A stretch of 64,000 bases of DNA from Mobula hypostoma (taxonomy: Eukaryota): the NCBI RefSeq assembly GCF_963921235.1, contig NC_086108.1:46130001-46194000 (forward strand). The letters run 5' to 3'. The notes under the pieces are model-generated. The model was not told where the DNA came from and made no database searches. It saw nothing but the letters and a program-made list of their open reading frames with translations. A program made the position numbers and the translations under genes. Positions 4,431 to 60,630 of this stretch are shown here, piece by piece (the first letter of the stretch is position 1; each line of letters starts with the position of its first letter).

Positions 4431-5163
4431 CTGGGACACGCCCCCTTCTCATTACAACCATCCGGGAGACTGGGACACACCCCCTTCTCATTACAACCAT
4501 CAGGGAGACTGGGACACACCCCCTTCTCATTACAACCATCAGGGAGACTGGGACACACCCCCTTCTCATTACAACCATCAGGGAGACTGGGACACACCCC
4601 CTTCTCATTACAACCATCGGGGACACTGGCATACGCCCCCTTCTCATTACAACCATCAGGGAGACAGACACACCCACTTCTCATTGCAACCATCTGGTAG
4701 ACTGGGACATGCCCCCTTCTCATTACAACCATCAGGGAGACTGGGACACACCCCCTTCTCATTACAACCATCAGGGAGACTGGGACACACCCCCTTCTCA
4801 TTACAACCATCGGGGAGACTGGGACACACCCCCTTCTCATTACAACCATCAGGGAGACAGACACACCCACTTCTCATTGCAACCATCTGGTAGACTGGGA
4901 CATGCCCCCTTCTCATTACAACCATCAGGGAGACAGGCACACCCTCTTCTCATTATTACCGCCAGGGAGACTGGGACACACCCCCTTCTCATTACAACCA
5001 TCGGGGACACTGGCATACGCCCCCTTCTCATTACAACCATCAGGGAGACAGGCACACCCTCTTCTCATTACAACCATCAGGGAGACTGGGACACACCCCC
5101 TTCTCATTACAACCATCGGGGACACTGGCATACGCCCCCTTCTCATTACAACCATCAGGGAGA
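4431..5163 (+). repeat. Minisatellite, 19 units (15 x 39 bp + 4 x 37 bp), consensus ctgggacacacccccttctcattacaaccatcagggaga
   Basis: Units parsed directly from the sequence. The array explains the repetitive ORFs at 4277-5188. Confidence 0.97.
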
Positions 5164-9879: not shown

Positions 9880-10330
9880 GTTGTAACCCACCTAATGTAA
9901 TGCATGGTCGCCTCTTGTGTGCTATCAGGCTACCCTCACGGTGAAGGAGCAACGCCTTATATTCTGTATGGGTAGCCTCCATCCTGATGACATGAATATC
10001 CATTTCTCCTTCCGGTAAATAAAAACTTTCCCTTCTCCCCTCCTCTCATCTCCCCATCACCTCCCCTGATGCCTCTCCTCTTTCCCTTTCTTCTCTGGTC
10101 CTCTCTTTTCTCCAGTCAGATTCCTTCTTACCCAGCCCTTTACCTTTCCCACCCACGTGGCTTCACCTAGCACCTTCTAGCTCTTTTCTTTCCTCTCCCT
10201 CCATCTTTTTGTTCTGGAGTCTTTCCCCTTCCTTTCCAGTCCTGAAGAAGGGTCTCAGCCCGAAATTGATGCTCCTGACCTGCTGAATTCCTCCAGCATT
10301 TTGTGTTTGTTGCTCTGAATTTCCAGTGTC
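9880..10330 (+). mobile_element. Penelope-like element (PLE) 3' end: GIY-YIG C-terminus, pyrimidine-rich UTR, pseudo-LTR with damaged hammerhead
   Basis: ATLTVKEQRLIFCMGSLHPDDMNIHFSFR* at ~9929-10018 resembles the PLE endonuclease C-terminus. AGTC-CTGAAGA-AGGGTCTCAGCCC-GAAA at 10238-10265. Confidence 0.8.
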
Positions 10331-11313: not shown

Positions 11314-12840
11314 TGTCTGCACTGATTTTGTTCATTCACAGTCAAACAAAAGCACTCAGCAGATGAGTTCCTTCATTATTCACTATTAGGTATACAGCTT
11401 TATAGTACCGTAGAGGTATTGGTTGGGTGGCAGGGTGGAGATATGTCTCTACCAAAGGAGGTGTAAGGAATTCTTCCCCTTCACTAGCCTATAGGTCTTT
11501 TCTTTCTTTTTAAATCTTTTTATTGAATAAGTATACAGAAAGGTAAGCCATATAGGCACTAATACACTGTTAGAATATAATAAAATTACGGAAGATATTA
11601 ATACAAAAAAAATACAAACAATGTAACTTAAACATAACATACCAAGGTAACATAATAGTATACTAATTTATATATATATATCAATAGAGAAAAGGAAAAA
11701 AAAAACCCCCAAAAAAAACCCACCGTGCAACTAACTAAAAGCAAAGCAAAGCAATGGGCTAACTTGAAACCAAACAGAGTTAAAAAAACTTAAAATCACG
11801 TCCTCAATCACGACCTCCATTAAAAACAGTAAAGAAAAACAAGAAGGGTATATATTACATTAAATGAAAATATTGAAGAAAAGATCTCCAGGTCTGTTCA
11901 AATTTAAATGAGGAGTCATAAAGATTGCTTCTAACTTTCTCCAAATTCAAGCATAATATCGTCTGAGAAAACCAAAAAAAGGTAGTTGGAGCATTAAGCT
12001 CTTTCCAATGTTGTAAGATACATCTATTCGCCATTAAAGTAAGAAATGCAATCATTCTATGGGCTGAAGGGGAGAGATTACTGGAAATTTTAGGTAGTCC
12101 AAAGATAGCAGTAATAGGGTGAGGAGAGATATCTATATTTAATACCTTGGAGATAATATTAAAAATGTCTCTCCAAAAAGTTTCCAGAGTAGGGCAAGAC
12201 CAAAACATATGAGTTAAAGAGGCTATCTGCCCCGGACATCTATCACAAAAAGGATTAATATGAGAATAAAAGCGAGCTAATTTATCTTTGGACATATGTG
12301 CTCTATGAACAACTTTAAATTGAATTAGGGAATGTTTAGCACAGATAGAGGAAGTATTGACTAATTGTAAAATCTGCCCCCAGTCATCCACGGAAATGAT
12401 AAACCCCAATTCCTGTTCCCAATCTACCCTAATCTTATCAAATGGAGCTTTCCTAAATTTCATAATAATATTATAAATCATAGCCGATGCACCTTTCTGA
12501 CATGGATTAAGGTTAATTATCGAATCTAAAATGTATGTAGGAGGAAGCATTGGAAAGGAAGAAAGTATAGTACTTAGGAAATTTCTAACTTGTAGATATC
12601 TAAAAAAATGTATTCTTGATAAATTATATTTATTAGATAATTGTTCAAAAGACGTAAGGGAACCATCTAAAAATAAATCCAAAAACCGTGAAATACCCTT
12701 AGTCTTCCAAATTTGAAAAGCACGATCCATAAAAGAGGGAGGAAAAAATATGTTACCTAAAATAGGAATCGCTAACCCAAATTGATTAAGATCAAAAAAT
12801 TTTCTGAATTGAAACCAAATACGTAAGGTATATTTAACTA

Positions 12841-12959
12841 ACAACAACATACATCAAAGTTGCTGGTGAACGCAGCAGGCCAGGCAGCATCTATAGGAAG
12901 AAGCGCAGTCAACGTTTCAGGCCGAGACCCTTCGTCAGGACTAACTGAAGGAAGAGTGA
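12841..12959 (-). mobile_element. 119-bp Penelope pseudo-LTR-derived insert with 18-bp TSD
   Basis: gtaaggtatatttaacta is present at both 12823-12840 and 12960-12977. The insert is absent from the homologous L1 position (~33500-33520). Confidence 0.92.
12906..12943 (-). ncRNA. Minimal type I hammerhead ribozyme motif (predicted)
   Basis: Minus strand reads AGUC CUGACGA AGG-GUCUCGG-CCU GAAAC GUU GACU: helix I AGUC/GACU, core CUGANGA and GAAA, helix II, and a palindromic AACGUU in place of helix III. Predicted cleavage between 12911 and 12910. Confidence 0.75.
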
Positions 12960-13956
12960 GTAAGGTATATTTAACTATCGGGTTAGACACCTGTTTAAGG
13001 CGTTTCAAATCAAAAGGAAGAGAGGAACCTAAAATAGAGCCAAGTGTATAACCCTGAACAGATTGTAATTCCAATGCTACCCATTTAGGAATGGATAGTA
13101 TATCCTGGTCAAGTAACCAAAATTTCATATGTCGAATATTAATTGCCCAATAATAAAATCTAAAGTTAGGTAATGCTAAGCCTCCATCTCTCTTTGCTTT
13201 CTGTAATTGTATTTTACCCAGTCTCGGGTTTTTATTTTGCCAAATAAATGAAGAAATTTTGGAGTCGACTTTATCAAAAAAAGATTTTGGAACAAAGATT
13301 GGTAATGCCTGAAATATATATAAAAATTTTGGCAAAAAAAACATCTTAACTGCATTAATACGACCAATCAAAGTTAAATATAAAGGAAACCATTTAGATG
13401 AAAGTTGAATAATATGGTCAATTAATGGTAAAAAGTTAATCTTAAATAAATCTTTGTATTTACAAGTAATTTTAATCCCAAGATATGAAAAATAATTATT
13501 AATCAATTTAAATGGAAAGTTATGATATAAGGGAAGTTGTTTATTAATCGGGAAAAGTTCACTCTTACTAAGATTTAATTTATAACCTGAAAAAAGACCA
13601 AATTGTGCTAATAGCTCTAAAACAGCCGGGATGGATTTTTGGGGATTAGAAATATATAAAAGTAAGTCATCAGCATAGAGTGATATTTTATGGGACTTTA
13701 AGCCCCGAATTATCCCAGTAATATTTGGAGATTCTCGAATGGCAATTGCAAGAGGTTCTAATGCAATATCAAATAATAAAGGACTAAGAGGACAACCTTG
13801 TCGAGTACCTCGAAAAAGAGGGAAAAAAGGTGAACTTAAAGAGTTAGTACGGACCGAGGCCACAGGAGAATGATATAACAGTTTAATCCAGGATATAAAT
13901 TTCGAGCTAAAATTAAACATTTCAAGCACCTTAAATAAATAAGGCCATTCTACTCT

Positions 13957-14779
13957 ATGTAGAGAGGATGAAGGGTTGGGCAGAGAAGTGATTGATGGAG
14001 TTCAATCCAGAAAAGCATGCAGTGATACACTTTATAAGATCAAACTTGAAGGCAGAGTGCAAGTCCAATGCCAGGATTCTTGGCATTGTGGGGGACCAGA
14101 GAAATTTTTGAGTCCAAGTCCATAGATCCCATAAAGTTGCAGCACAAGTTGATAAGTGGTTAAGAAGGTGCACAGTGTGCTGGCCTTCATTGGTCTGGGG
14201 ATTGAGCTAGTGAGCCACAAGGTAATGTTGCAGATTTATAAAACTCTGGTTAGACCGCACTGGGAATATTGTGTTCAGTTCTGATCCCCATAAGAATGAG
14301 ACGGAAGTTTTTGAGAGAGTGCAGGAGGAGGCTTACCAGGATGCTTCCTGAATTAGAGAACATGTCTTATGAAGACAGATTGAGCAAGCCAGGGCTTTTC
14401 ACTTTGGAATGACAGAGGATGAGAGGCAACCTGATAGAGATGTGCAAGATTAGGAAAGGCACAAGTAGAGTGGATAACTAGCACCTTTTACCCAGGGCAG
14501 CAATGGCCAATAAAAGAGAACACCCATTTAAGATGACTGGAGGAAAGTTTAGGGGAGATGTGTGATTTTATTTTTACACAAAGTCATTTGTGTCTAGAAC
14601 ACTCTGCTGGGGGTGGTGGTCAAGGCTGATGCAATAGGGACATTTAAAAGGCTCTTAGGCACATGGAAGTAAGAAAAATTGGAGGGCTATGTACTATGTA
14701 AGAGGGAAGGGATAGCTTTGTAGGTTGGTACAACACTGAGGGCCAAAACTGTGCTCTACTGTTTTATGTTCTACATTCT
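13957..14779 (+). mobile_element. Degraded 5'-truncated CR1
   Basis: WAEK..MEFNPEK, LYKTLVRPHWEYCVQF and RMRGNLIE remnants, with a ctgtgctctactgttttatgttct tail. Confidence 0.85.
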
Positions 14780-15992: not shown

Positions 15993-17596
15993 GGATGCAC
16001 TGGAGCTTATGGAAAGCATCAAGTTGGATAAGTCACCGGGACCGGATGAGATAAACACCAGGCTGCTGTGGGGGGCGAGGAAGGAGATTCATGAACCTCT
16101 AGCAATGATCTTTGCACCATCGATGGGGACGGGAGAGGTTTTGGAGGATTGGAGTGTTGCAGATGTTGTTCCCTTATTCAAGTAAAGGAGTAGAGATAGC
16201 CCAGGAAATTATAGACCAGTGAGTCTTACTTCAGTGGTTGGTAGGTTGATGGAAAAGATCCTGAGAGGCAGGATTTATGAACATTTGGAGAGGCATAATA
16301 TGATTAGAAATAGTCAGCATGGCTTTGTCAAAGGCAGGTCGTGCCTTACAAGCCTGACTGAATTTTTTGAGGATGTGACTAAACATACTGATGAAGGTAG
16401 AGCAGTAGATGTAGTGTATATGGATTTCAGTAAGGAATTTGAGAAGGTACCCCATGCAAGGTTTATTGAGAAAGTAGGAGGCATGGGATCCAAGGGGACC
16501 TTGCTTTGTGGATCCAGAACTGGCTTGCCCACAGGAGGCAAAGAGTGGTTGCAGACAGGTCATATTCTGCATGGAAGTTGGTGACCAGTGGTGTGCCTCA
16601 GGGGTATGTCTGGGACCCCTTCTCTTTGTGATTTTTATAAATTACCTGGATGAGGAAGTGGAGGGATGGGTGAGTAAATTTGCTGATGACACACAGGTTG
16701 GAGGTGTTGTGGATAGTGTGGAGGGCTGTCAGAGGTTACAGTGGGAAATCAATAGGATGCAAAACTGGGCTGAGAAGTGGCAGATGGATTTCAACCCAGA
16801 TAAGTGTGAGGTGGTTCATTTTGGTAGGTCAAATACCATGGCAGAATATAGTATTAATGGAAAGACTCTTGGCAGTGTGGAGGATCAGAGGGATCTTGGG
16901 GTCTGAGTCCATAGGACACTCAAAGCTGCTGCGCAAGTTGACTGTGTGGTTTAGAAGGCATACGATGCATTGGCCTTTATCAAGCGTAGGATTGAAATTA
17001 AGAGCTGAGAAGTAATGTTACAGCTATACAGGACCCTGGTCAGACCGCACTTGGAGTATTATGCTCAGTTCTGGTCACCTCACTACAGGAAAGATGTAGA
17101 AACTATAGAAAAGGTGCAGAGGAGATTTACAAGGATGTTGACTGGATTGGGGAGCATGTCTTATGAGAATAGGTTGAGTGAACTTAGCCTTTTCTCCTTG
17201 GAGCAATGGAGGATGAGAGGTGATCTGATAGAGGTGTATAAGATGATGAGAGGCATTGATCGTGTGAATAGTCAAAGGTTTTTTCCCAGGGCTGAAATGG
17301 CTAACACGAGAGGGCACAGTTTTAAGGTGTTTGGAAGTAAGTACTGTACAGAGGAAATGTCAGTTGTTTGTTTGTTTTTATGCAGAGAGTGGCAAGTACG
17401 TGGAATGGGCTGCAGGCAACGGTGGTGGAGGCAGATACGATAGTCTTTTCTAAGAGTCTCCTGGATAGGTACCTGGAGCTCAGAAAAATAGAGGACTATA
17501 GGTAACCCTAGGTAATTTCTAAAGTAAGTACATGTTTGGCACAGCATCGTGGGCCTAAGGGCCTGTATTATGTTGTAAGTTTTCTATGTTTCCATG
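15993..17596 (+). mobile_element. 5'-truncated CR1 (RT and C-terminus, frameshifted)
   Basis: ORFs 16219-17443: SQHGFVKGRSCLT, VDVVYMDFSK, SKFADDT, LVRPHLEYYAQFWSP. Tail tttctatgtttccatg. Confidence 0.95.
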
Positions 17597-20500: not shown

Positions 20501-21100
20501 ATCTTCAATGTGATTTTCAACTTTTCTGAACTCTGTTTATTTACTATAAATTGCAAGTTAATGGACCATAGATGTCACAAAGATCACAGGTGGGTACATG
20601 AAAATTGTTGGAGGTGGCATACAAGGGACTCTCACATAAGACCTACTGCATCCAAAGTTTCTAGGGACACAAGCCCTATAGCTAGATGCGCTTGAGGGCA
20701 ATGCTACCCACCAGGATACTTCTTGTTGGCCTTACAATTGTACAGAACAGAATGAGTCCTCTGCCAGACATCAAGTACTAAACACTTCTCCCAGTACTTC
20801 AGTCTGTAGCCTTCTTTGCCATGACTTTTCAAGTGTTCATCTAAATACTTCTTAAATGTTGTGAGGGTACCAGCTTGCAGTCAAGAAATTTGTTCCACAT
20901 TCCAATCAAAAAAAATCTTCCTCAAATCCACTCAGTTTTTTTTTTACCCTTTACCTTAAGCTGATTCCATATGGTTTAAGACACCTCTGCCAGGGGCAAA
21001 CCTACTCATTACCTACCCTAAGCCCTTTATAATGTGTTTTTTTAAATAAATGCACCCTAGTGTGGTCCTGCTTTACAAAGGAAGCAAACCCAGCCTGTGC

Positions 21101-21187
21101 AACACACACAAAATGCTGGAGGAACTCAGCAAGCCAGGCAGCATCTGTGGAAAAAAGGTACAGTCGACATTTCGGGCGGAAACCTTT
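21101..21187 (-). mobile_element. Short PLE pseudo-LTR insert with partial hammerhead
   Basis: aacacacacaaaatgctggaggaactcagc...cagtcgacatttcgggc. Flanked by an imperfect 11-bp repeat: ccagcctgtgc (21090-21100) and ccagcctatcc (21188-21198). Confidence 0.8.
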
Positions 21188-21831
21188 CCAGCCTATCCAG
21201 TTTTTCCTCACGGTCAGAATGTTCCACCCAGGCAACATCTTGGTTTTGCTCTCTGACAATATTGCTCGCTGTTTCATTTGGCAGATCACCCTACCTTCAC
21301 ACTCCAAGGAGAGGACCTTCACTCCGTAGGAGCAGGGGAGAGGAGACACCACAATTTGCCATTATTGCAATCTTCCCCAAAATGCACCTGTTCAGCAGAC
21401 AATACTGATTCAGATTTTAACTCTTTTCAGAAACCTCCCCGTAACCTGGTGCACGATGATGTGGTACCCGAGCATGTCCCTATGGCCCCCTTAAAGAACA
21501 TGTCTTGCTCTCATTCATGCAGTATATCTGAAATACCAGTAAAAAAATCACTGCTTAGGTGGTGTGTTCCTTTTAAGAGCTGGTTCAACAGCATCATCCA
21601 AGAACGTTTCCTCAGCGGGGTCACAGAGCAAGACTAAAATGGAGCCAGATGCAAGATTTGCCATGGGGCAACACGATAGCATGCACTGAGCCTGACACAA
21701 TGCATCTTTGCATGGAGAAATCCAACAAAGCTGTCCTGAGTAGCTAGTATTAAAGGATTGCATTTCTGATGGGATATGTATAAACAGAGTCAACATTATC
21801 ATAGCTGCACCTATCAAAGAGCAACATTGGA

Positions 21832-30020: not shown

Positions 30021-30717
30021 TCACACTATTAAATCATTTCTGTTTGATTGGAGGCTGTTAATCTGTTGGATTTAATTTCTTTCTTTTGCTCTATATGAGG
30101 GCAGAAATGTTTTTTTTTCCGGTTTAATTAATATGGCTGCCAAACTTTTTTTTAACTGCGCCATTCCTTTCTTCTTCCCTGGGGATTCTGGGTGGCCATT
30201 CCCACAGCATCATTTTACGCACATTCCTGGAGGCCTTAAACTTTGTAGTTTTTGTAGTTTTTTTTGGCTAGTCTATGCTGATATTTCATTTTCTTGTTTA
30301 ATTATACGGTCTGTTGTAGGTTAACAGTTTTCTTTATATATACCTGTTTTTTCTTTGTATTATATCATTTTCATTTTAATCGGTGTACTTTTTTTAACTC
30401 TTCTACTGTTTTATAACTTTAGCTGATCTTTTTATATATACAATTTTTTTAATGAGCGTCTATCGGAAGTCATGGGGGTAGATCTAGTGCTCGCTTCTTT
30501 CTGGCTAGTCTATCTTAGATTTAGCTTTGGGGTTACAGGGCGGAGGGTTGGGGGGGCTTCACTTCTTAGTTTTTCTATCTTCTTGGGCTACTTATATTAT
30601 TGAAGTATTTGTCGCGTCCTCTTTCTCGCTATCTCATGTTTATTCTGTTCCCTTTCCAGGTTCGTTGGTCGAACCTATTGTCAATCCTCCTTTATTTGAG
30701 GGTTGACTTTAGGGATT

Positions 30718-33700
30718 ATGGAGTCTACTATTAATTTTGTCTCTTGGAATACTAACAGTCTTCATCATCCAATTAAAAGGAAAAAAATCTTTAAAGTATT
30801 CCGGAGACTTAAAGCAGATATTCTATTTTTACAAGAGACCCATGTGCGGAGGGGAGACAGATTACATTTTTTTAAGTTCTGGAAGGGTCAGCACTTCCAT
30901 TCGAATTCCAACGCCAACATTCGGAGATTTTCTATTTTTGTAGATCCCTCAATCACTCTTGTGCAACACGATATTATCTCTGATCCGAATGATAGATTTC
31001 TATTGGTTAGTGGTTTACTCTTTAATAAAAAGGTAGTTTTGGTTAACGTCTATGCTCCAAACCTGGACTGTCCGGAATTTTATAAATCATTATTTAATTT
31101 GTTCCCGAATTTGAATGAGTTTTCACTAATCTGGGGCAGAGATCTTAATACTTGTTTATCCCATTATTGGACCGTTCGGCTCCTATATGGACTCTACCCA
31201 ATAAATCAGCAACCTTGATTAATTCATTTCTCTCAGATTCCGGGTCGACGGACATTTGGCGATTTTTGCATCCCCAGGAAAAAGACTTCTCTTTTTTTCA
31301 CATGTTCATCATTCCTATTCAAGAATTGATTATTTTTTATTGACTCTCATCTTATTTCTTCAGTGGTTAAATGACTCTATAGCCATTTCGGATCGTGCTC
31401 CACTTAAGCTTTCTATTAAAATATTGGCCAATACACAAAATAATAGACAATGGCGTTTTAATTCGCTATTACTTCAGGACTTGGATTTTGTTAACTTTAT
31501 GAATGAACAGATTGATCTCTTTTTTACAATCAACTGTACAAAGGATATATCCATGAACACCCTTTGGGATACTTTTAAAGCTTATATTCGTGGCCAGATC
31601 ATCTCGTACTCTACTGTTTTGAGAAGAAGATTGAAGGAGGAGGAGCTGGTTCTTGTGGACAAGATTAAGGAAATTGATAAGAAATATGCTACAGCTCCCT
31701 CTGAGAAGTTGTATAAACAAAGAACTGAACTTCAAATAGAACACAGTTTATTACTTCCGTCCTCTATTGCAAATCAGTTAATGAAAACAAGAAGCAAATT
31801 TTATATACATAGCGACAAAGTTGGTAAACTGTTGGCTAATCAGTTGAAGGCTAACTCTACTAAATTTCAAATTAATCAGATTTATAATCAAAAAGATCAA
31901 CTGACATTTGATCAAGCTGAGATTAATCAATCCTTTTTTGACTTTTATTCCTCTTTATATCAATCAGGGTCTCCACGAGATTCTAAACATATGTGTGACT
32001 TTTTAGATAACCCAGATTTCCCCAAAATTTCACACGATATATGTTCTATGTTAGACACTTCCTTTACCACTGATGAGATTAAGAATGTTATTTTTTCTAT
32101 GAACCCGGGGAAAGCTCCTGGTCCTGATGGGTTTACCATGGAATTTAAAAAATTTTTTGCATCCTCATTAATCCCTTGGCTATTCAGGGTTCTGGAGGCC
32201 TCATTAAAACTTAGTAAACTACCCGAATCCTTTTATAGCGCATCGATCTCTTTAATATTAAAGAAGGATAAAGACCCCGCTCAATGTGCATCTTATAGAC
32301 CAATATCCTTGTTAAATGTTGACGCTAAAATTTTTTCTAAATTATTAGCAAACAGACTAGAAAAAGCACTTCCTTATATTATCTCGGAAGACCAAATGGG
32401 TTTTATTAAAAATCGTTATTCTTTTTATAATATTCGTACACTTTTAAACATTATTTATACCCCGTCACAAAATGATCCTGAATGCATCATTTCCCTAGAC
32501 GCTGAAAAAGCCTTTGACAGGGTCGAATGGCCTTACTTATTTAAGGTGCTTGAAATGTTTAACTTCAGCCCGAAATTTATATCCTGGATCAGATTGTTAT
32601 ATCATTCTCCTATGGCCTCAGTTCGTACTAACTCTTTAAATTCACCCTTTTTTCCTCTTTTTCGAGCTACCAGACAAGGTTGTCCTCTTAGTCCTTTATT
32701 ATTTGATATAGCATTAGAACCTCTTGCAATTGCTATTCAAGAATCTCCTAACATTATTGGTATAACTCGTGGTTTAAAGTCTCATAAAGTATCACTTTAT
32801 GCTGATGACTTACTTTTATATATTTCTAATCCTCAAAAATCTATTCCTGCAGCTTTAGATTTATTAGCACAATTTAGTCTTTTTTCAGGTTATAAGTTAA
32901 ATCTCAATAAGAATGAATTTTTCCCAGTTAATAAGCAAGTTCCCTTATATCAGAACCTGCCGTTTAAATTGGCTAATAATCATTTTTCATATCTTGGGAT
33001 TAAAATTACCTGCAAAAACATAAGGATTTATTTAAGCCTAATTTCCTACCCTTAATTGACCACATTACACAACTTTCATTTAAATGGTCTCCATTTTATC
33101 TAACTTTGATTGGTCATATTAATGCTGTTAAGATGTTTATTCTGCCAAAATTTTTATATATATTTTAGGCATTACCGATTTTTGTTCCAAAATCCTTTTT
33201 TGACAAAGTTGACTCTAAAATTTCTTCATTTATTTGACAAAATAAAAACCCAAGACTGGGTAGAATACATCTACAGAAAGCTAAGAGAGATGGAGGTTTG
33301 GCATTACCTAATTTTAGATTCTATTATTGGGCAATTAATATTCGACACATGAAACTTTGGTTACTTGACCAAGATACACTATCCATTCCTAAATGGGTAC
33401 TATTGGAATTACAATCTGCTCAAGGTTATGCACTTGACTCCATTTTAGGTTCTTCTCTTCCTTTCGATTTGAAACGCCATAAACAGGTTTGTAATCCGAT
33501 AGTTAAACATACCTTACGCATTTGGTTTCAATTCCGAAAATTTTTCGATCTAAATCAATTTGGACTAGCGATTCCTATTTTAAGCAACATATGCTTTCCC
33601 CCCTCTTCTACGGACCGTGCCTTTTAAATTTTGAAGACCATTGGTATATCATGGTTTTTGGATTTATTTTCAGATGGCTCCCTTACGTCTTTTGAACAAT

Positions 33701-34442
33701 TATCTAACAAATATAACTTATCAAGAATACATTTCTTTAGATATCTCCAAGTTAGAAATTTCCTAAGTACCATACTTTCTTCCTTTCCGGCGTTACCCCC
33801 TACATATATTTTAGATACCAGAATTAACCTTAACCCGTGTCAGAAAGGTGTAACGGCTATTATTTATAATACTATCATGAAATTTAGGACAGCTCCATTC
33901 GATAAGATTAGGTCCGAATGGGAAAAGGAATTGGGCTTCACTATTTTGGCGGATGACTGGGCGTATATTTTACAACTAGTCAATACTTCCTCTATCTGTT
34001 CCCAACATTCCCTAATTCAATTTAAAGTTGTTCATAGAGCACGTATGTCTAAAGATAAATTAGCTCGTTTTTATTCTCATATTAACCCTCTTTGTGATAG
34101 ATGTCATGGGGAGATAGCTACCTTAACTCATATGTTTTGGTCCTGTCCTACTCTGGAAACTTTTTGGAAAGAAATTTTTAATATTATCTCAAAGGTATTG
34201 AATACAGATATTTCTCCCCATCCTATTACTGCTATCTTTGGATTACCTAAAACTTCCAGTAATCTTTCCCCTTCAGCCCGTAGAATGATTGCATTTCTTA
34301 CTATAATGGCGAAAAGATGTATTTTACAACATTGGAAGGAGATTAATGCCCCAACTACCTTTTTTTGGTTTTCTCAAACGATACTATGTTTAAATTTGAA
34401 CAGACCTGGAGATCTTTAATTCAACATTTTCATTTAATGTAA
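30718..34442 (+). pseudogene. L1 ORF2p (APE endonuclease, RT, CCHC), several frameshifts and stops
   Basis: SWNTNSL, ADILFLQETH, NVYAPN, SRIDYF, KAPGPDGF, SLDAEKAFDRVEW, RQGCPLSP, YADD, CDRC..HMFWSC. Confidence 0.95.
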
Positions 34443-35116
34443 CTTTTTTTTTCTCTTTGACCATATTTACATTCCCTTCTTGGTTTTTAACTGTTATTAA
34501 TGGAGGTCGGGTTTAAGGACGTGATTGTTTAAGTTGTTTATGTCTACTTGGCACCTAGTTAGCCCATTGCTTTGTTTTGCTTTTTAGGTTAGTTGCACGG
34601 TGGGTTTTTAAAAATTTTTTTTGGGGGGTTTTTTCTTCTCTTTATTGATATATATGGAAAATTAGTATACTACTATATTACCTCATTATTTTATAACTAA
34701 ACTGCACTGTTTGTACTTTTTTTATGTATTAATATCTCTTGTAAATTTATATCGCAACAGTGTATTAGTTTCTATATGTTTTACCTTTTGTGTACTAATT
34801 CAATAAAAAGATTTAAAAAGAAAGAAAGAAAGACTTCCGCTGAAATTAGCATGTTGGTATAATACAGCATCCTATAGCTAATTTCTTGTGTTCGCTCGCC
34901 TATAACTACTGATGACACCCGAAACCAGCAGATAGGATAAAGCTGAAATACAAAATAACCCTTTATTCAGAAACACCACACAACTACAAAAATTGCAAAA
35001 CTAAGCAGTACATCCCAAAGCACGACAATTTAAATGGTTTACTCAAGAATATTCGAAGTGTTGATCGGAACAATGATCAAACAACCTGGGATTGGTTGTC
35101 ATGATCAATAGGCATT

Positions 35117-45961: not shown

Positions 45962-46106
45962 AGCACAAGAGATTCTGCAAATGCTGAAATCTCGAGCAAC
46001 ACTCACAAAATGCTGGAGGAACTCAGCAGTTAAGGCAGCGTCTATGGAGGGAAATAAACAGACAACATTTCAGGCCAAGATCCTTCATCAGGACTGGAAA
46101 GGAAGC
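45962..46106 (-). mobile_element. PLE pseudo-LTR fragment with decayed hammerhead
   Basis: Minus strand AGTC CTGATGA AGGATCTTGGCCT GAAATGTT GTCT at 46060-46095, followed by the same gctgagttcctccagcattttgtg segment as other copies. Confidence 0.85.
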
Positions 46107-51004: not shown

Positions 51005-53266
51005 GCACCAACCCTCTTGTCAATCTACTATACTGCAATCCTGAACTTCAGCTCCCCCAAGCTTGCATGTGGAGCGAAGTCACTCGATAAGATGAACAGG
51101 AACTGTTCACCCTTTATCATCTGCACTCGAAAACCAAGATCACTCCATCCTCAGTCATTGAACTAGAATACGCAGGTGATGGTTGTGTATTTATACAGAG
51201 GGCAAACTTCAAGATGTTGTAAATTCCTCTACCAAAGCACCTGACAGGATGGGCCTTACAATAAGCACACGAGACACAATGCAAAACAGCATCCCTACAA
51301 TCGAGCTCCATAACCAAACCCTGAAGAATGTGGATCACTTCCCACTTTTCAGGAAGTGCTGCTCAGTGACGGCAAACATCAATAACTAATAAGCTTCATC
51401 ATTACTTCCTACTGACCAAGGAAAAGTATTTAAATAGCATGATCACAAACCTAACCTCAAGCTCATGGAGAAAGGAGAGCAGTGATCTCCCTCTTCCCAG
51501 GTACTCTGTGAAGATGGAAAGCCTACAGTAGAAAGTAGAAGTACCAATAATGCTACCATCACAAAATCAAAATCAATTGTCAGGATAGGTGAACCAACTT
51601 TAGCGCTCTTTCCCAGACCAGCATCCTGACATTTGAGGCCTTGGTCACATCTCACAGCTTTGGTGGATGTGCAGATTACTCACATGCCTATCAGCAGAGT
51701 CCCCCAAAGAAGTTTCATTTGTTGGAGCCTCACAGGACGAGGTCTCCAGGATGACAAAAACTACTTCAAATGTTCTCAAAGATTCTGTAAAATGAAAAAG
51801 TTACATCCGCACGAATTCACAAAAAATCCCAACATTCAAAATTGAGGTACATGCAGGAAGGTACAGAGCACCCTGCGTCACTACAATGGGAACATATTGA
51901 CTAGAACATAGAATACTACAGCATGTCCGGGCCTTTCGGCCCATGATGTTATGCTGACCTTATAACCTATTCTAAGATCAATCTATCCTTCCCCCTCCCA
52001 CATAGTCCTCCATTTTCTAACATCCATGTGCCTATTTAAATTTCCTTGATGTATCTGCCTCTACAAACAGCCCTTCGGCATGTTCCAAACACTCACCACT
52101 CCGTGTGAAAAACCTACCTCTGACATCACCCTATACTTTCCTCCAATCACCTTAAAATTATGCCTGCTCGTATTAGCCTTTACACCCTGGGGTTAAAAAA
52201 ACCCTGGCTGTCTACTTGATCTATGCCTCTTACCATCTTGTACACCTCTACCAAGTCACTTCTGATCCTCTATCATTCCAAAGAGAAAGCCTAGTTCACT
52301 CAACCTTTCTTCATAAGACATGCTCTCAAATACAGGCAGCATCCTGGTGCGCATTTCATCTGTCGCATCTCTAAAGCTTCCACATCCTTCCTACAATGAG
52401 ATGAACAAATCTGCACACCATACTCCAAGTGTGATGTAACCAGAGTTTAATAGAGCTGTAAAATTATCTTGATCTCAATCCCCTGACTAATGACAGCCAA
52501 CACACCATACGCCTTCTTAACTACCCTATCAACTTGTGTAGCAACTTTGAGAAAGTTACTGGCATGGATCCTAATATTCCTCCATTCCTTCACACTCCTA
52601 AGAACCCTACATTAACCCTGTACTCTGTGTTCAAGTTATGATTTTCCAAAGTGTATCACTTCACACTTCTCCAACTTGAAATCCATCTGCCACTTCTCAG
52701 CTCAGCTCTGCATCCAGTCAGTGTCGTGTTGTAACTTGTGACAACCTTCTACACTATCCACAACACTACCAACCTTCATGTCACCTGCAAACTTACCAAC
52801 CCATCCTTCCACTCATCCAAGTCAGTTATATATTAAATAAGAACACAGAAAGCAGGAGTCCCTGAACAGTTCCCTGCAGAACACCACCAGTCACCAAACT
52901 CCAGGCAGAATATGTTCCATCTACAACCACCCTCTGCCTTCTATGGGCAAGCCAATTCTAAATCCACACAGCCAAGTTTCCTTGGATCCTAAATCTCTGG
53001 ACTTCTGACTGAAATCCATATACACCACATCCACCACCCTACCTTCATCAATTTGTTTTGTCACTTCCTCAAAGATTGCAATCAGGCTTGTGAGGCAGGA
53101 CCTGCCCTTCACGAAGTCATGCTGAGCAAAGGGAACAAGCCATTCACCTGCCAGCCAGGCCAGCATTCAAACGCCTTGTGGCAGAGTCTGCAAACCAGTG
53201 TGGGACTCATCAGTCACCACAAATCTGGAGTGGAAGCAAACCACCTTAACCGAGGACTGTCTAAGA
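51005..53266 (+). mobile_element. Degraded RTE (BovB-like) LINE split by a CR1 (RTE parts ~51005-51900 and 53126-53266)
   Basis: SKTKITPSSVIELEYAGD, RMGLTIS and LKNVDHFP. After the CR1: CGRVCK..VGLISH..GVEA, the RTE C-terminus. Confidence 0.7.
51902..53125 (-). mobile_element. 5'-truncated CR1 nested in RTE
   Basis: QHDFVKGRSCLTSL...VDVVYMDFS, with tail tagaacatagaa on plus. Confidence 0.9.
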
Positions 53267-59123: not shown

Positions 59124-60630
59124 TATAACCATATAACCATTACAGCACGGAAACAGGCCATATCGGCCCTTCTAGTCCATGCTGAACTCTTACTCTCACA
59201 TAGTCCCACTGACCTGCACTCAGCTCATAACCCTCCATTCCTTTCCTGTCCATATAGCTGTCCAATTTAACTTTAAATGACAACATCGAACCTGCCTCAA
59301 CCTCTTCTGCTGGAAGCTCATTCCACACAGCTACCACTCTCTGAGTAAAGAAGTTCCCCCTCATGTTACCCCTAAACTTTTGCCCCTTAACTCTCAACTC
59401 ATGCCCTCTTGTTTGAATCTCCCCCACTCTCAATGGAAAAAGCCTATCCACGTCAACTCTATCTATCCCCCTCATAATTTTAAACACCTCTATCAAGTCC
59501 CCCCTCAACCTTCTACACTCCAAAGAATAAAGACCCAACTTGTTCAACCTTTCTCTGTAACTCAGGTGATGAAACCCAGGTAACATTTTAGTAAATCTTC
59601 TCTGTACTCTGTCTATTTTGTTGACATCTTTCCTATAATTCGGTGAGCAAAACTGTACACAATACTCTAAATTTGGCCTCACCAATGCCTTGTACAATTT
59701 CAGCATTACATCCCAACTCCTATACTCAATTGTCTGATTTATAAAGGCCAGCATACTGAAAACTTTCTTCACCACCCTATCCACATGAGGTTCCACCTTC
59801 AGGGAACTATGCACCATTATTCCTAGATCCCTCTGTTCTACTGCATTCTTCAATGCCCTACCATTTACCATGTATGTCCTATTTTGATTAATCCTACCAA
59901 AATGTAGCACCTCACATTTATTAGCATTAAACTCCATCTGCCATCTTTCAGCCCACTCTTCTAACTCGCCTAAATCTCTCTGCAAGCTTTGAAACCTACT
60001 TCATTATCCACAATTCCACCTATCTTGGTATCATCTGCATACTTCCTCATCCAATTTACCACCCCATCATCCAGATCATTAATGTATATGACAAACAACA
60101 TTGGACCCAGCACAGATCCCTGAGGCACACCACTAGTCGCCGGCCTCCAATCTGACAAAAAGTTATCCACCACCACTCTCTGGTTCTCCTATCCAGCTAC
60201 TGCTGAATCCATTTTACTACTTCAATATTAATACCTAACGATTGAACCTTCTGAACCAACCTTCCATGTGGGACCTTATCAAAGGCCTTACTGAAGTCCA
60301 CATAGACAACATCCACCACTTTACCCTCGTCAACTTTCCTAGTAACCTCTTCAAAACATTCAATAAGATCTGTCAAACATGACCTTCCACGCACAAATCC
60401 ATGTTGACTGTTCCTAATCAGACCCTGTCTATCCAGATAATTATATATACCATCTCTAAGAATACTTTCCATTAATTTACCCACAACTGACGTCAAACTC
60501 ACAGGCTGATAATTGCTAGGTTTACTCTTTGAACCCTTTTTAAACAATGGAACCACATGAGCAATACGCCAATCCTCCAGCACCATCCCTGTTTCTAATG
60601 ACATTTGAAATATTTCTGTCAGAGCCCCTG
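59124..60630 (-). mobile_element. Relatively young 5'-truncated CR1
   Basis: ORFs 60197-60604, 59970-60176 and 59140-59985: DFSKAFDKVPH, GVPQGSVLGP, KYADDT, VRPNLEYCVQF. (ATATGGTT)n tail. Confidence 0.96.

What the first reader, a model, noticed from the sequence alone, without database searches (positions are those of the whole stretch)
12823..12977. 119-bp hammerhead-ribozyme mini-retroelement with a perfect 18-bp TSD knocks out an otherwise open L1 ORF2
Seen: a non-coding 119-bp insert between identical 18-bp repeats. Removing it and one repeat restores ...NPIVKYTLRIWFQF..., matching the other L1 in this window. The minus strand reads AGUC CUGACGA AGG(GUCUCGG)CCU GAAAC GUU GACU and ends in (GUU)n. 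Established: Penelope-like elements carry minimal type I hammerheads in their pseudo-LTRs, and those lacking helix III are thought to cleave as dimers through a palindrome. Inference: the perfect TSD and retained CpGs mean a recent insertion, and the core plus AACGUU palindrome could still be active. The unit may move as a tiny ribozyme-bearing RNA or may be an extreme 5' truncation of a PLE.
Basis: partly seen in the sequence, partly recalled or inferred. Interest (0 to 1): 0.7.

Follow-up and report, generated by a model that had tools for sequence, protein, structure and literature searches.

The report
Truncated Penelope end inside dead L1
This 119-base insertion is real, but it is the cut-short tail end of a very abundant Penelope-like jumping gene, carrying that element's known small hammerhead motif (predicted, not shown, to cut RNA), and it landed in an L1 copy that lacks the first half of its gene, so it is ordinary.

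Summary
Real insertion, ordinary origin. The 18-bp repeat, 119-bp spacer and restored L1 frame are confirmed; 11 of 11 sister L1 copies show the empty site. The insert is the 5'-truncated 3' end (pseudo-LTR) of a young Penelope-like element: 25 of 29 close copies continue upstream towards an RT/GIY-YIG ORF, the same stretch precedes the ORF in 11 of 30 longer copies, and a 26-mer from it occurs 47,818 times. Corrections: the host L1 is 5'-truncated (starts near human ORF2p residue 604), so no functional ORF2 was knocked out; six bases of the 'TSD' are microhomology (family TSDs 9-15 bp); (GUU)n is not a family tail (0 of 98); family ends are bimodal, the known PLE 'tail'. The cleavage triplet GUU is a likely CpG-decay variant of GUC; no two-sided covariation. 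One family oddity: 5' ends crowd at the hammerhead's upstream edge, not at its cleavage site. This scan found the same thing before on other DNA of this and other genomes.

The parts
12823..12840 (.). Target-site duplication, copy at the element's 3' end (the original L1 target)
   Evidence: single copy in sister L1s
12960..12977 (.). Target-site duplication, copy at the element's 5' end; 12960-12965 also match the element's upstream sequence (6-nt microhomology)
12845..12959 (-). 3' end (+1..+115) of a Penelope-like element's pseudo-LTR, tail-less 3' class, 98-100% identical to the closest family copies
12841..12844 (-). Four extra bases (TTGT) between the element end and the TSD; likely a slipped repeat of the terminal TTG, not a family tail
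12906..12943 (-). Minimal type I hammerhead motif: stem I (U)AGUC/GACU(G), CUGACGA, bulged A, stem II GGGU/GCCU with CUCG loop, GAAA-CG-U-U17, no helix III loop; predicted cleavage 12911/12910
12928..12957 (-). Predicted alternative hairpin (+3..+32, about -9 to -10 kcal/mol) that sequesters CUGA and the stem II 5' arm
12978..13958 (-). Host L1, 5' part of a 5'-truncated copy (starts at RVEWPYLF in the RT domain)
11499..12822 (-). Host L1, 3' part (rest of ORF2 with zf-RVT, stop at 11855-11857, 3' UTR)

Best explanation
The insert is a 5'-truncated, tail-less 3'-end copy of a young Neptune-type Penelope-like retrotransposon, likely made by that element's own RT/GIY-YIG protein and inserted into an L1 copy that lacks its 5' half. 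Shown: identity to the family's pseudo-LTR, the ladder of longer copies running into the ORF, the two classes of 3' end, the empty site in sister L1s, the 6-nt microhomology, the host's missing 5' half. Inferred (by analogy with the Anolis Poseidon element, PMC11167929): the endonuclease nicked the AT-rich L1 target; reverse transcription began inside the element RNA at the upstream of two start sites (+115, before the 35-nt tail), with a small slip that added TTGT; synthesis stopped just past the hammerhead; the cDNA end paired with 6 matching target bases, which lengthened the duplication from the family's usual 9-15 bp to 18. The hammerhead is a passenger. As a lone copy with U17, a G-U closing pair of stem II and folds that bury the core, it is predicted not to cleave in cis.
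For: 25 of 29 closest copies continue 47 to >=1,500 bases upstream towards an ORF of 852-871 codons stop-to-stop with YIDD, CX4CxxC and VIYC...LYIG (Pfam RVT_1 E 4e-5 and GIY-YIG E 9e-4, both below the curated cut-offs). The same 115 bases lie in sense directly before the ORF's 5' part in 11 of 30 loci and inverted in 7: pLTR-ORF-pLTR layout. 3' ends of 98 position-sampled copies: 43 at +106..+125, 46 at >=+144, 3 between, 6 shorter, the 30-40-bp tail of PMC8557442 and PMC11167929. 47,818 exact matches of a 26-mer, reversed control 0. TSDs 9-15 bp in 27 rows, 11 of 27 solo copies, and 6 of 6 short solo copies. Host L1 aligns to human ORF2p residues 604-897, E 2e-64. Predicted folds bury the core, z about 0. 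A single min-HHR showed no cleavage (PMC4209133); the PAc HHR cleaved only with protein and was not needed for insertion in vitro (PMC11167929).
Against: 5' ends are not evenly spread: 22 of 95 fall in -30..+12, 4.6 times the upstream rate, and 17 of 30 copies picked downstream of the cleavage site start at +14..+31, so short copies are a favoured product rather than only random truncation. An 18-bp duplication is longer than any other measured here. No activity or RNA data. Neptune placement rests on the linker motif, not on a tree. The order of events (L1 truncated before the insertion) is inferred.
Confidence: 0.87

Rival explanations
1. The copy belongs to a discrete short class: cDNA primed at the tail sites near the 5' end of a pLTR-initiated or processed RNA runs off, or stalls, at a fixed place just upstream of the hammerhead, so the element makes 90-150-bp hammerhead-bearing insertions as a distinct product.
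For: 5'-end crowding at -30..+31; solo copies starting at +18..+26 all have TSDs (6 of 6); none of 30 starts at the cleavage site +50; one of the most stable local hairpins spans +3..+32; a pyrimidine tract ending in CAG/TTAG abuts stem I, as the intron end does in D. virilis Penelope (PMC4209133).
Against: Ends spread over about 60 nt, not one base; 15 of the 22 crowded ends are arms of inverted insertions, which are not independent; this copy starts at -5..+1, upstream of the +14..+31 peak; six solo copies show no shared upstream exon; one search scored only 40 of 838 candidates; no RNA data.
Confidence: 0.09
2. The 119-bp unit is a SINE-like or retrozyme-like RNA that is transcribed, self-cleaves as a dimer and is mobilised as such.
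For: Short TSD-flanked hammerhead copies are common; vertebrate non-LTR retrozymes are proposed to derive from PLE pLTRs (bioRxiv 10.64898/2026.07.22.740005).
Against: No fixed 5' or 3' boundary shared with other copies; no (GUU)n tail (0 of 98); not in a tandem array; ends do not coincide with the cleavage site; only two other places match the 76-nt core at 100%, both long PLE copies; no two-sided covariation.
Confidence: 0.03
3. Assembly artefact, or a chance repeat without insertion.
For: The locus is one repeat inside another; the junction contig is short of the tool's bridging rule and may come from the assembly's source sample.
Against: Exact duplication of a site that is single in sister L1s; identical 52-nt junction contig in two runs at depth about 20; five base-shuffles of the window give no 18-mer repeat at this range.
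Confidence: 0.01

Closest known systems
5'-truncated insertions of EN+ Penelope-like elements, Neptune type (PMC8557442, passages read; PMC3846280, passages read)
   Same: Single ORF with RT and C-terminal GIY-YIG, CX2-5CxxC linker, pLTR at both ends of the ORF, inverted 5' arms, optional 30-40-bp tail, heavy 5' truncation, short TSDs, microhomology at 5' junctions, insertion into other retroelements.
   Different: This copy keeps only 115-121 bases and has an 18-bp apparent duplication; the family is very abundant (47,818 exact 26-mer matches); clade not tested by a tree.
Minimal hammerheads (min-HHR) of metazoan PLE pLTRs (PMC4209133, parts 1-2 of 4 read)
   Same: Type I, short stem I, no loop 3, palindromic 15.2/16.2 (C/G), unpaired base between positions 9 and 10.1, mostly single dispersed copies.
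   Different: Stem II is only 4 bp; 10.1-11.1 is G-U here (G-C in 23 of 98 sampled copies) and position 17 is U (C in 89 of 98).
Poseidon element PAc of Anolis (PMC11167929, parts 1-2 of 4 read)
   Same: HHR just upstream of two internal RT start regions that define the tail; AT-rich target.
   Different: Poseidon clade; its ORF starts in stem II, whereas here the long frame opens only at about +110; nothing tested in vitro here.
Non-LTR retrozymes (bioRxiv 10.64898/2026.07.22.740005, abstract and most of Results read)
   Same: Short non-coding HHR unit related to a PLE pLTR; monomers dispersed.
   Different: No tandem array, no unit-length boundaries, direct continuity with the autonomous PLE.

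Membership tests
EN+ Penelope-like element (parent family) | Single ORF with RT and C-terminal GIY-YIG endonuclease | tested here: met
   (motifs clear; Pfam scores below the curated cut-offs)
EN+ Penelope-like element (parent family) | pLTR repeated before and after the ORF; inverted 5' arms | tested here: met
   (11 sense, 7 inverted of 30)
EN+ Penelope-like element (parent family) | Optional 30-40-bp 3' tail | tested here: met
   (43 short, 46 long of 98)
Neptune clade | CX2-5CxxC motif between RT and EN | tested here: met
   CKRNKCYTC; definition from PMC8557442 (shared with Nematis)
Neptune clade | RT phylogeny | not tested
   no reference PLE proteins were at hand
min-HHR of PLEs | Core CUGANGA / GAAA-N-N-UH, stems I and II, bulge before 10.1, palindromic 15.2/16.2 | tested here: met
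min-HHR of PLEs | G10.1-C11.1 pair | tested here: not met
   G-U in this copy and in 73 of 98 sampled copies
min-HHR of PLEs | Covariation in stems I/II | tested here: inconclusive
   0 two-sided changes in 37 variants at 94% mean identity
min-HHR of PLEs | Self-cleavage as dimer or with protein | not testable with these tools
   needs an in vitro assay
Non-LTR retrozyme / independent SINE-like unit | Unit-length copies with shared ends, tandem arrays | tested here: not met
Non-LTR retrozyme / independent SINE-like unit | Circular or unit-length RNA | not tested
Intact L1 ORF2 (host) | APE endonuclease plus complete RT | tested here: not met
   starts near human ORF2p residue 604

The most novel reading that the evidence does not exclude
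This PLE family makes, as a favoured product, 90-150-bp TSD-flanked insertions whose 5' ends are set by a feature at the hammerhead's upstream edge (a transcript 5' end, a splice-acceptor-like site or an RT-blocking hairpin) and not by ribozyme cleavage. Such copies would be the raw material of retrozyme- or SINE-like hammerhead units, and tens of thousands of them would map the RNA boundary of PLE reverse transcription in vivo.
Probability: 0.12. Interest if true: 0.45.

Novelty: new member of a known kind. Interest (0 to 1): 0.12.

Why it matters
As a single locus it matters little: one of tens of thousands of PLE end fragments, in an L1 that could not encode a working ORF2. It is a clean example of a nested young insertion with an empty-site control and a 5' microhomology inflating the TSD. 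The only wider value is at family level: the bimodal 3' ends repeat in vivo the internal RT start sites shown for PAc, and the crowding of 5' ends upstream of (not at) the cleavage site suggests that self-cleavage does not define inserted copies.

Tried and rejected
Rfam scan: no hammerhead model matched at E<=10, only four chance-level hits; taken as the models not covering the minimal form, not as absence. Fixed 5' end at about -4 (my early idea, note): rejected, ends spread from -30 to +31. 5' ends at the cleavage site: 0 of 30; among 17 further pieces lacking the 26-mer none began at +50, and three began at +59, next to subfamily-variable columns, possibly alignment breaks. A spliced upstream exon joined at +16/+20: no shared upstream sequence in six solo copies. 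(GUU)n tail: seen only in the search biased by this copy's end, 0 of 98 in the position-sampled set. A TSD of the host L1: none of 8 bases or more found. Genotyping: empty-site joints in organisms C and D can come from sister L1 copies and say nothing about this locus; no junction piece was listed for organism B, which proves nothing. For one search, 12 of 49 motif rows were dropped (9 cut by their own 5' junction, 3 non-family rows, two of other length) and one row was replaced by the window's identical sequence. Lunse et al. (PMC5785218) is not held; I saw only its title in a reference list. Searches listed no paper on this family or on 5'-end crowding at PLE hammerheads; I read listings and the passages named only, and no supplements, which may list this family.

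Full report
Observation. The window has an identical 18-nt direct repeat at 12823-12840 and 12960-12977 with 119 bases between. Two minus-strand frames of 387 and 332 codons meet here; dropping the insert and one repeat in memory gives one 669-codon frame reading NPIVKYTLRIWFQF, of which about 654 codons are L1. With the insert, the frame gains 40 foreign residues and stops. Eleven other L1 copies (12 of 40 hits fetched, one being this locus), 95-99% identical, all lack the insert, and 7 carry the exact 18-mer once. A 52-nt contig identical to the left junction stands in two runs of one sample at depth about 20; it may be the assembly's source and has fewer than 31 letters on each side. The insertion is real.

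The host L1 lacks its 5' half. Homology to the window's other L1 and to the sister copies ends at about 13958; the product aligns to human L1 ORF2p residues 604-897 (E 2e-64), so the endonuclease and the N-terminal part of the RT are missing, and a 425-residue query from the other L1's N-terminal half found only its own place and one weak 26% hit in the window. 'Knocks out an otherwise open ORF2' is therefore wrong in substance: the fragment is open because it is young, not because it was functional. That the truncation came before the insertion is inferred from how L1 copies arise.

What the insert is. In the own genome (3.48 Gb) the insert has many 98-100% matches (42 rows from 40 of 1,354 candidates scored). 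In 25 of the 29 other loci fetched the match continues 47 to at least 1,500 bases upstream towards an ORF; longer fetches gave 852 and 871 codons stop-to-stop with YIDD, a CKRNKCYTC linker and VIYCVRC...LYIGET. Pfam gives RVT_1 (E 4e-5) and GIY-YIG (E 9e-4), both under their curated cut-offs. In 11 of 30 loci chosen by the ORF's 5' part the same 115 bases lie in sense before the ORF, and in 7 they lie inverted. This is the pLTR-ORF-pLTR layout of an EN+ Penelope-like element; the CX2-5CxxC linker points to Neptune or Nematis (PMC8557442, passages). A 26-mer of the insert has 47,818 exact matches, reversed control 0. Earlier scan notes call the host a ray; no call of mine names it.

Ends. I sampled by position 98 of the first 100 listed matches on contig C1. 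3' ends are bimodal: 43 at +106..+125, 46 at +144 or beyond, 3 between, 6 shorter. This is the optional 30-40-bp tail, which in the Anolis PAc element lies between two internal RT start sites (PMC11167929, parts 1-2). The window's copy is tail-less and has four extra bases; 0 of 98 end in GTTGTTGT, so (GUU)n is not a family tail. TSDs of other copies are 9-15 bp (27 rows; 11 of 27 solo copies, the other 16 giving none of 7 bp or more). The six repeat bases next to the insert's 5' end are also the element's next six upstream bases: the insert is 119-125 bp, the unambiguous duplication 12 bp, and microhomology explains the long 'TSD'. A microhomology junction of a PLE inside a non-LTR element is described in PMC3846280 (passages).

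The hammerhead. The motif (12906-12943, minus strand) fits the min-HHR of PMC4209133 (parts 1-2 of 4): core, short stem I, unpaired base before 10.1, palindromic C/G at 15.2/16.2, no loop 3. Its stem II register is off by one: A-U is broken in 15 of 37 variants, while G-U/G-C holds in 34 of 37. No pair shows a two-sided change, in variants 94% alike on average, so covariation neither supports nor refutes. This copy has U17 where 89 of 98 have C; T at that place (8 of 98) is about as common as changes at the neighbouring CpG positions (5, 10 and 8 of 98), so it is likely CpG decay, here or in the source copy. Five CpGs remain and one long copy is identical over 114 bases: young. Predicted folds pair the core into inactive hairpins and are no more stable than shuffles (z 0.13 and 0.05). 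Rfam has no match. A single min-HHR did not cleave and dimers cleaved weakly (PMC4209133); the PAc ribozyme needed the protein and was dispensable for insertion in vitro (PMC11167929). That GUU cleaves worse than GUC and that G-C is preferred at 10.1-11.1 for activity is recalled, not from a call. No second family hammerhead lies nearby; the next relatives in the window are decayed, 2.6 kb or more away. Activity in cis is unlikely.

Result against the simplest reading. 5' ends are not evenly spread: 22 of 95 resolved ends lie in -30..+12, 4.6 times the upstream rate (binomial p 2e-7, inflated because 15 of the 22 are arms of inverted insertions). Of 30 copies picked by sequence downstream of the cleavage site (40 of 838 candidates scored), 17 start at +14..+31, 13 further upstream and none at the cleavage site; six of the 17 are solo and all six have 10-15-bp TSDs. 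Candidate causes are an RNA 5' end, a pyrimidine tract ending CAG/TTAG at stem I (the D. virilis intron ends there, PMC4209133; its start site lies 46 bp before the intron, PMC2377424 passages), or an RT stall in the +3..+32 hairpin. None is tested; the window's copy starts on the upstream shoulder (-5..+1). I had noted clustering near -4 before the look-up; earlier scan notes report the same crowding.

Mechanism (inferred steps marked). Element RNA binds its RT-EN protein; EN nicks the AT-rich L1 target (inferred); RT starts at the upstream internal site and slips by a few bases (inferred from the end at +115 plus TTGT); it stops just past the hammerhead; the cDNA end pairs with six matching target bases and repair completes an 18-bp duplication (microhomology shown, its use inferred). 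The product is a passenger in a defective L1.

Verdict. A new member of a known kind: a truncated PLE pLTR copy with a published type of minimal hammerhead. The scan found the same kind before (8 findings in at least 3 genomes; 1 nearby). Interest 0.12; the family-level 5'-end crowding is the only open point.

Noticed in passing
window 46011-46096, 21100-21188, 10238-10265: Older, decayed pLTR/hammerhead remnants of related PLE families (76-89% identity to the insert); 46059-46096 still fits the motif loosely.
   Followed up: partly
window 30700-34830 (+): A second, longer L1 with APE and RT domains, broken by stops and frameshifts; 83-88% identical to the host L1.
   Followed up: partly
window 4431-5163: 39-bp minisatellite, 19 copies, which accounts for the GC-rich ORFs listed there.
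   Followed up: no
window 13966-14692, 16142-17343, 52000-53125, 59461-60579: Mutually similar repeats (66-70%) that look like CR1-type LINE fragments (label recalled); the host L1's truncated 5' end abuts the first.
   Followed up: no
PLE family, +3..+20 (window 12940-12957): A pyrimidine tract ending in CAG and TTAG abuts stem I of the hammerhead, like a splice acceptor; in D. virilis Penelope the intron ends at helix I. No spliced copy was seen in six solo loci.
   Followed up: partly
L002, L011, L070/L071, L143, L162/L163, L168/L169, L170/L171, L180/L181: Many insertions are short head-to-head palindromes whose centres lie in or just upstream of the hammerhead.
   Followed up: partly
L019 and L020 (G000:C96): Two loci 82 kb apart are 99.9% identical over 3.1 kb including flanks: a recent duplication or an assembly duplicate.
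   Followed up: no
L003, about 580-720: A small rearranged pLTR piece with a tandem duplication of tail sequence inside another repeat.
   Followed up: no
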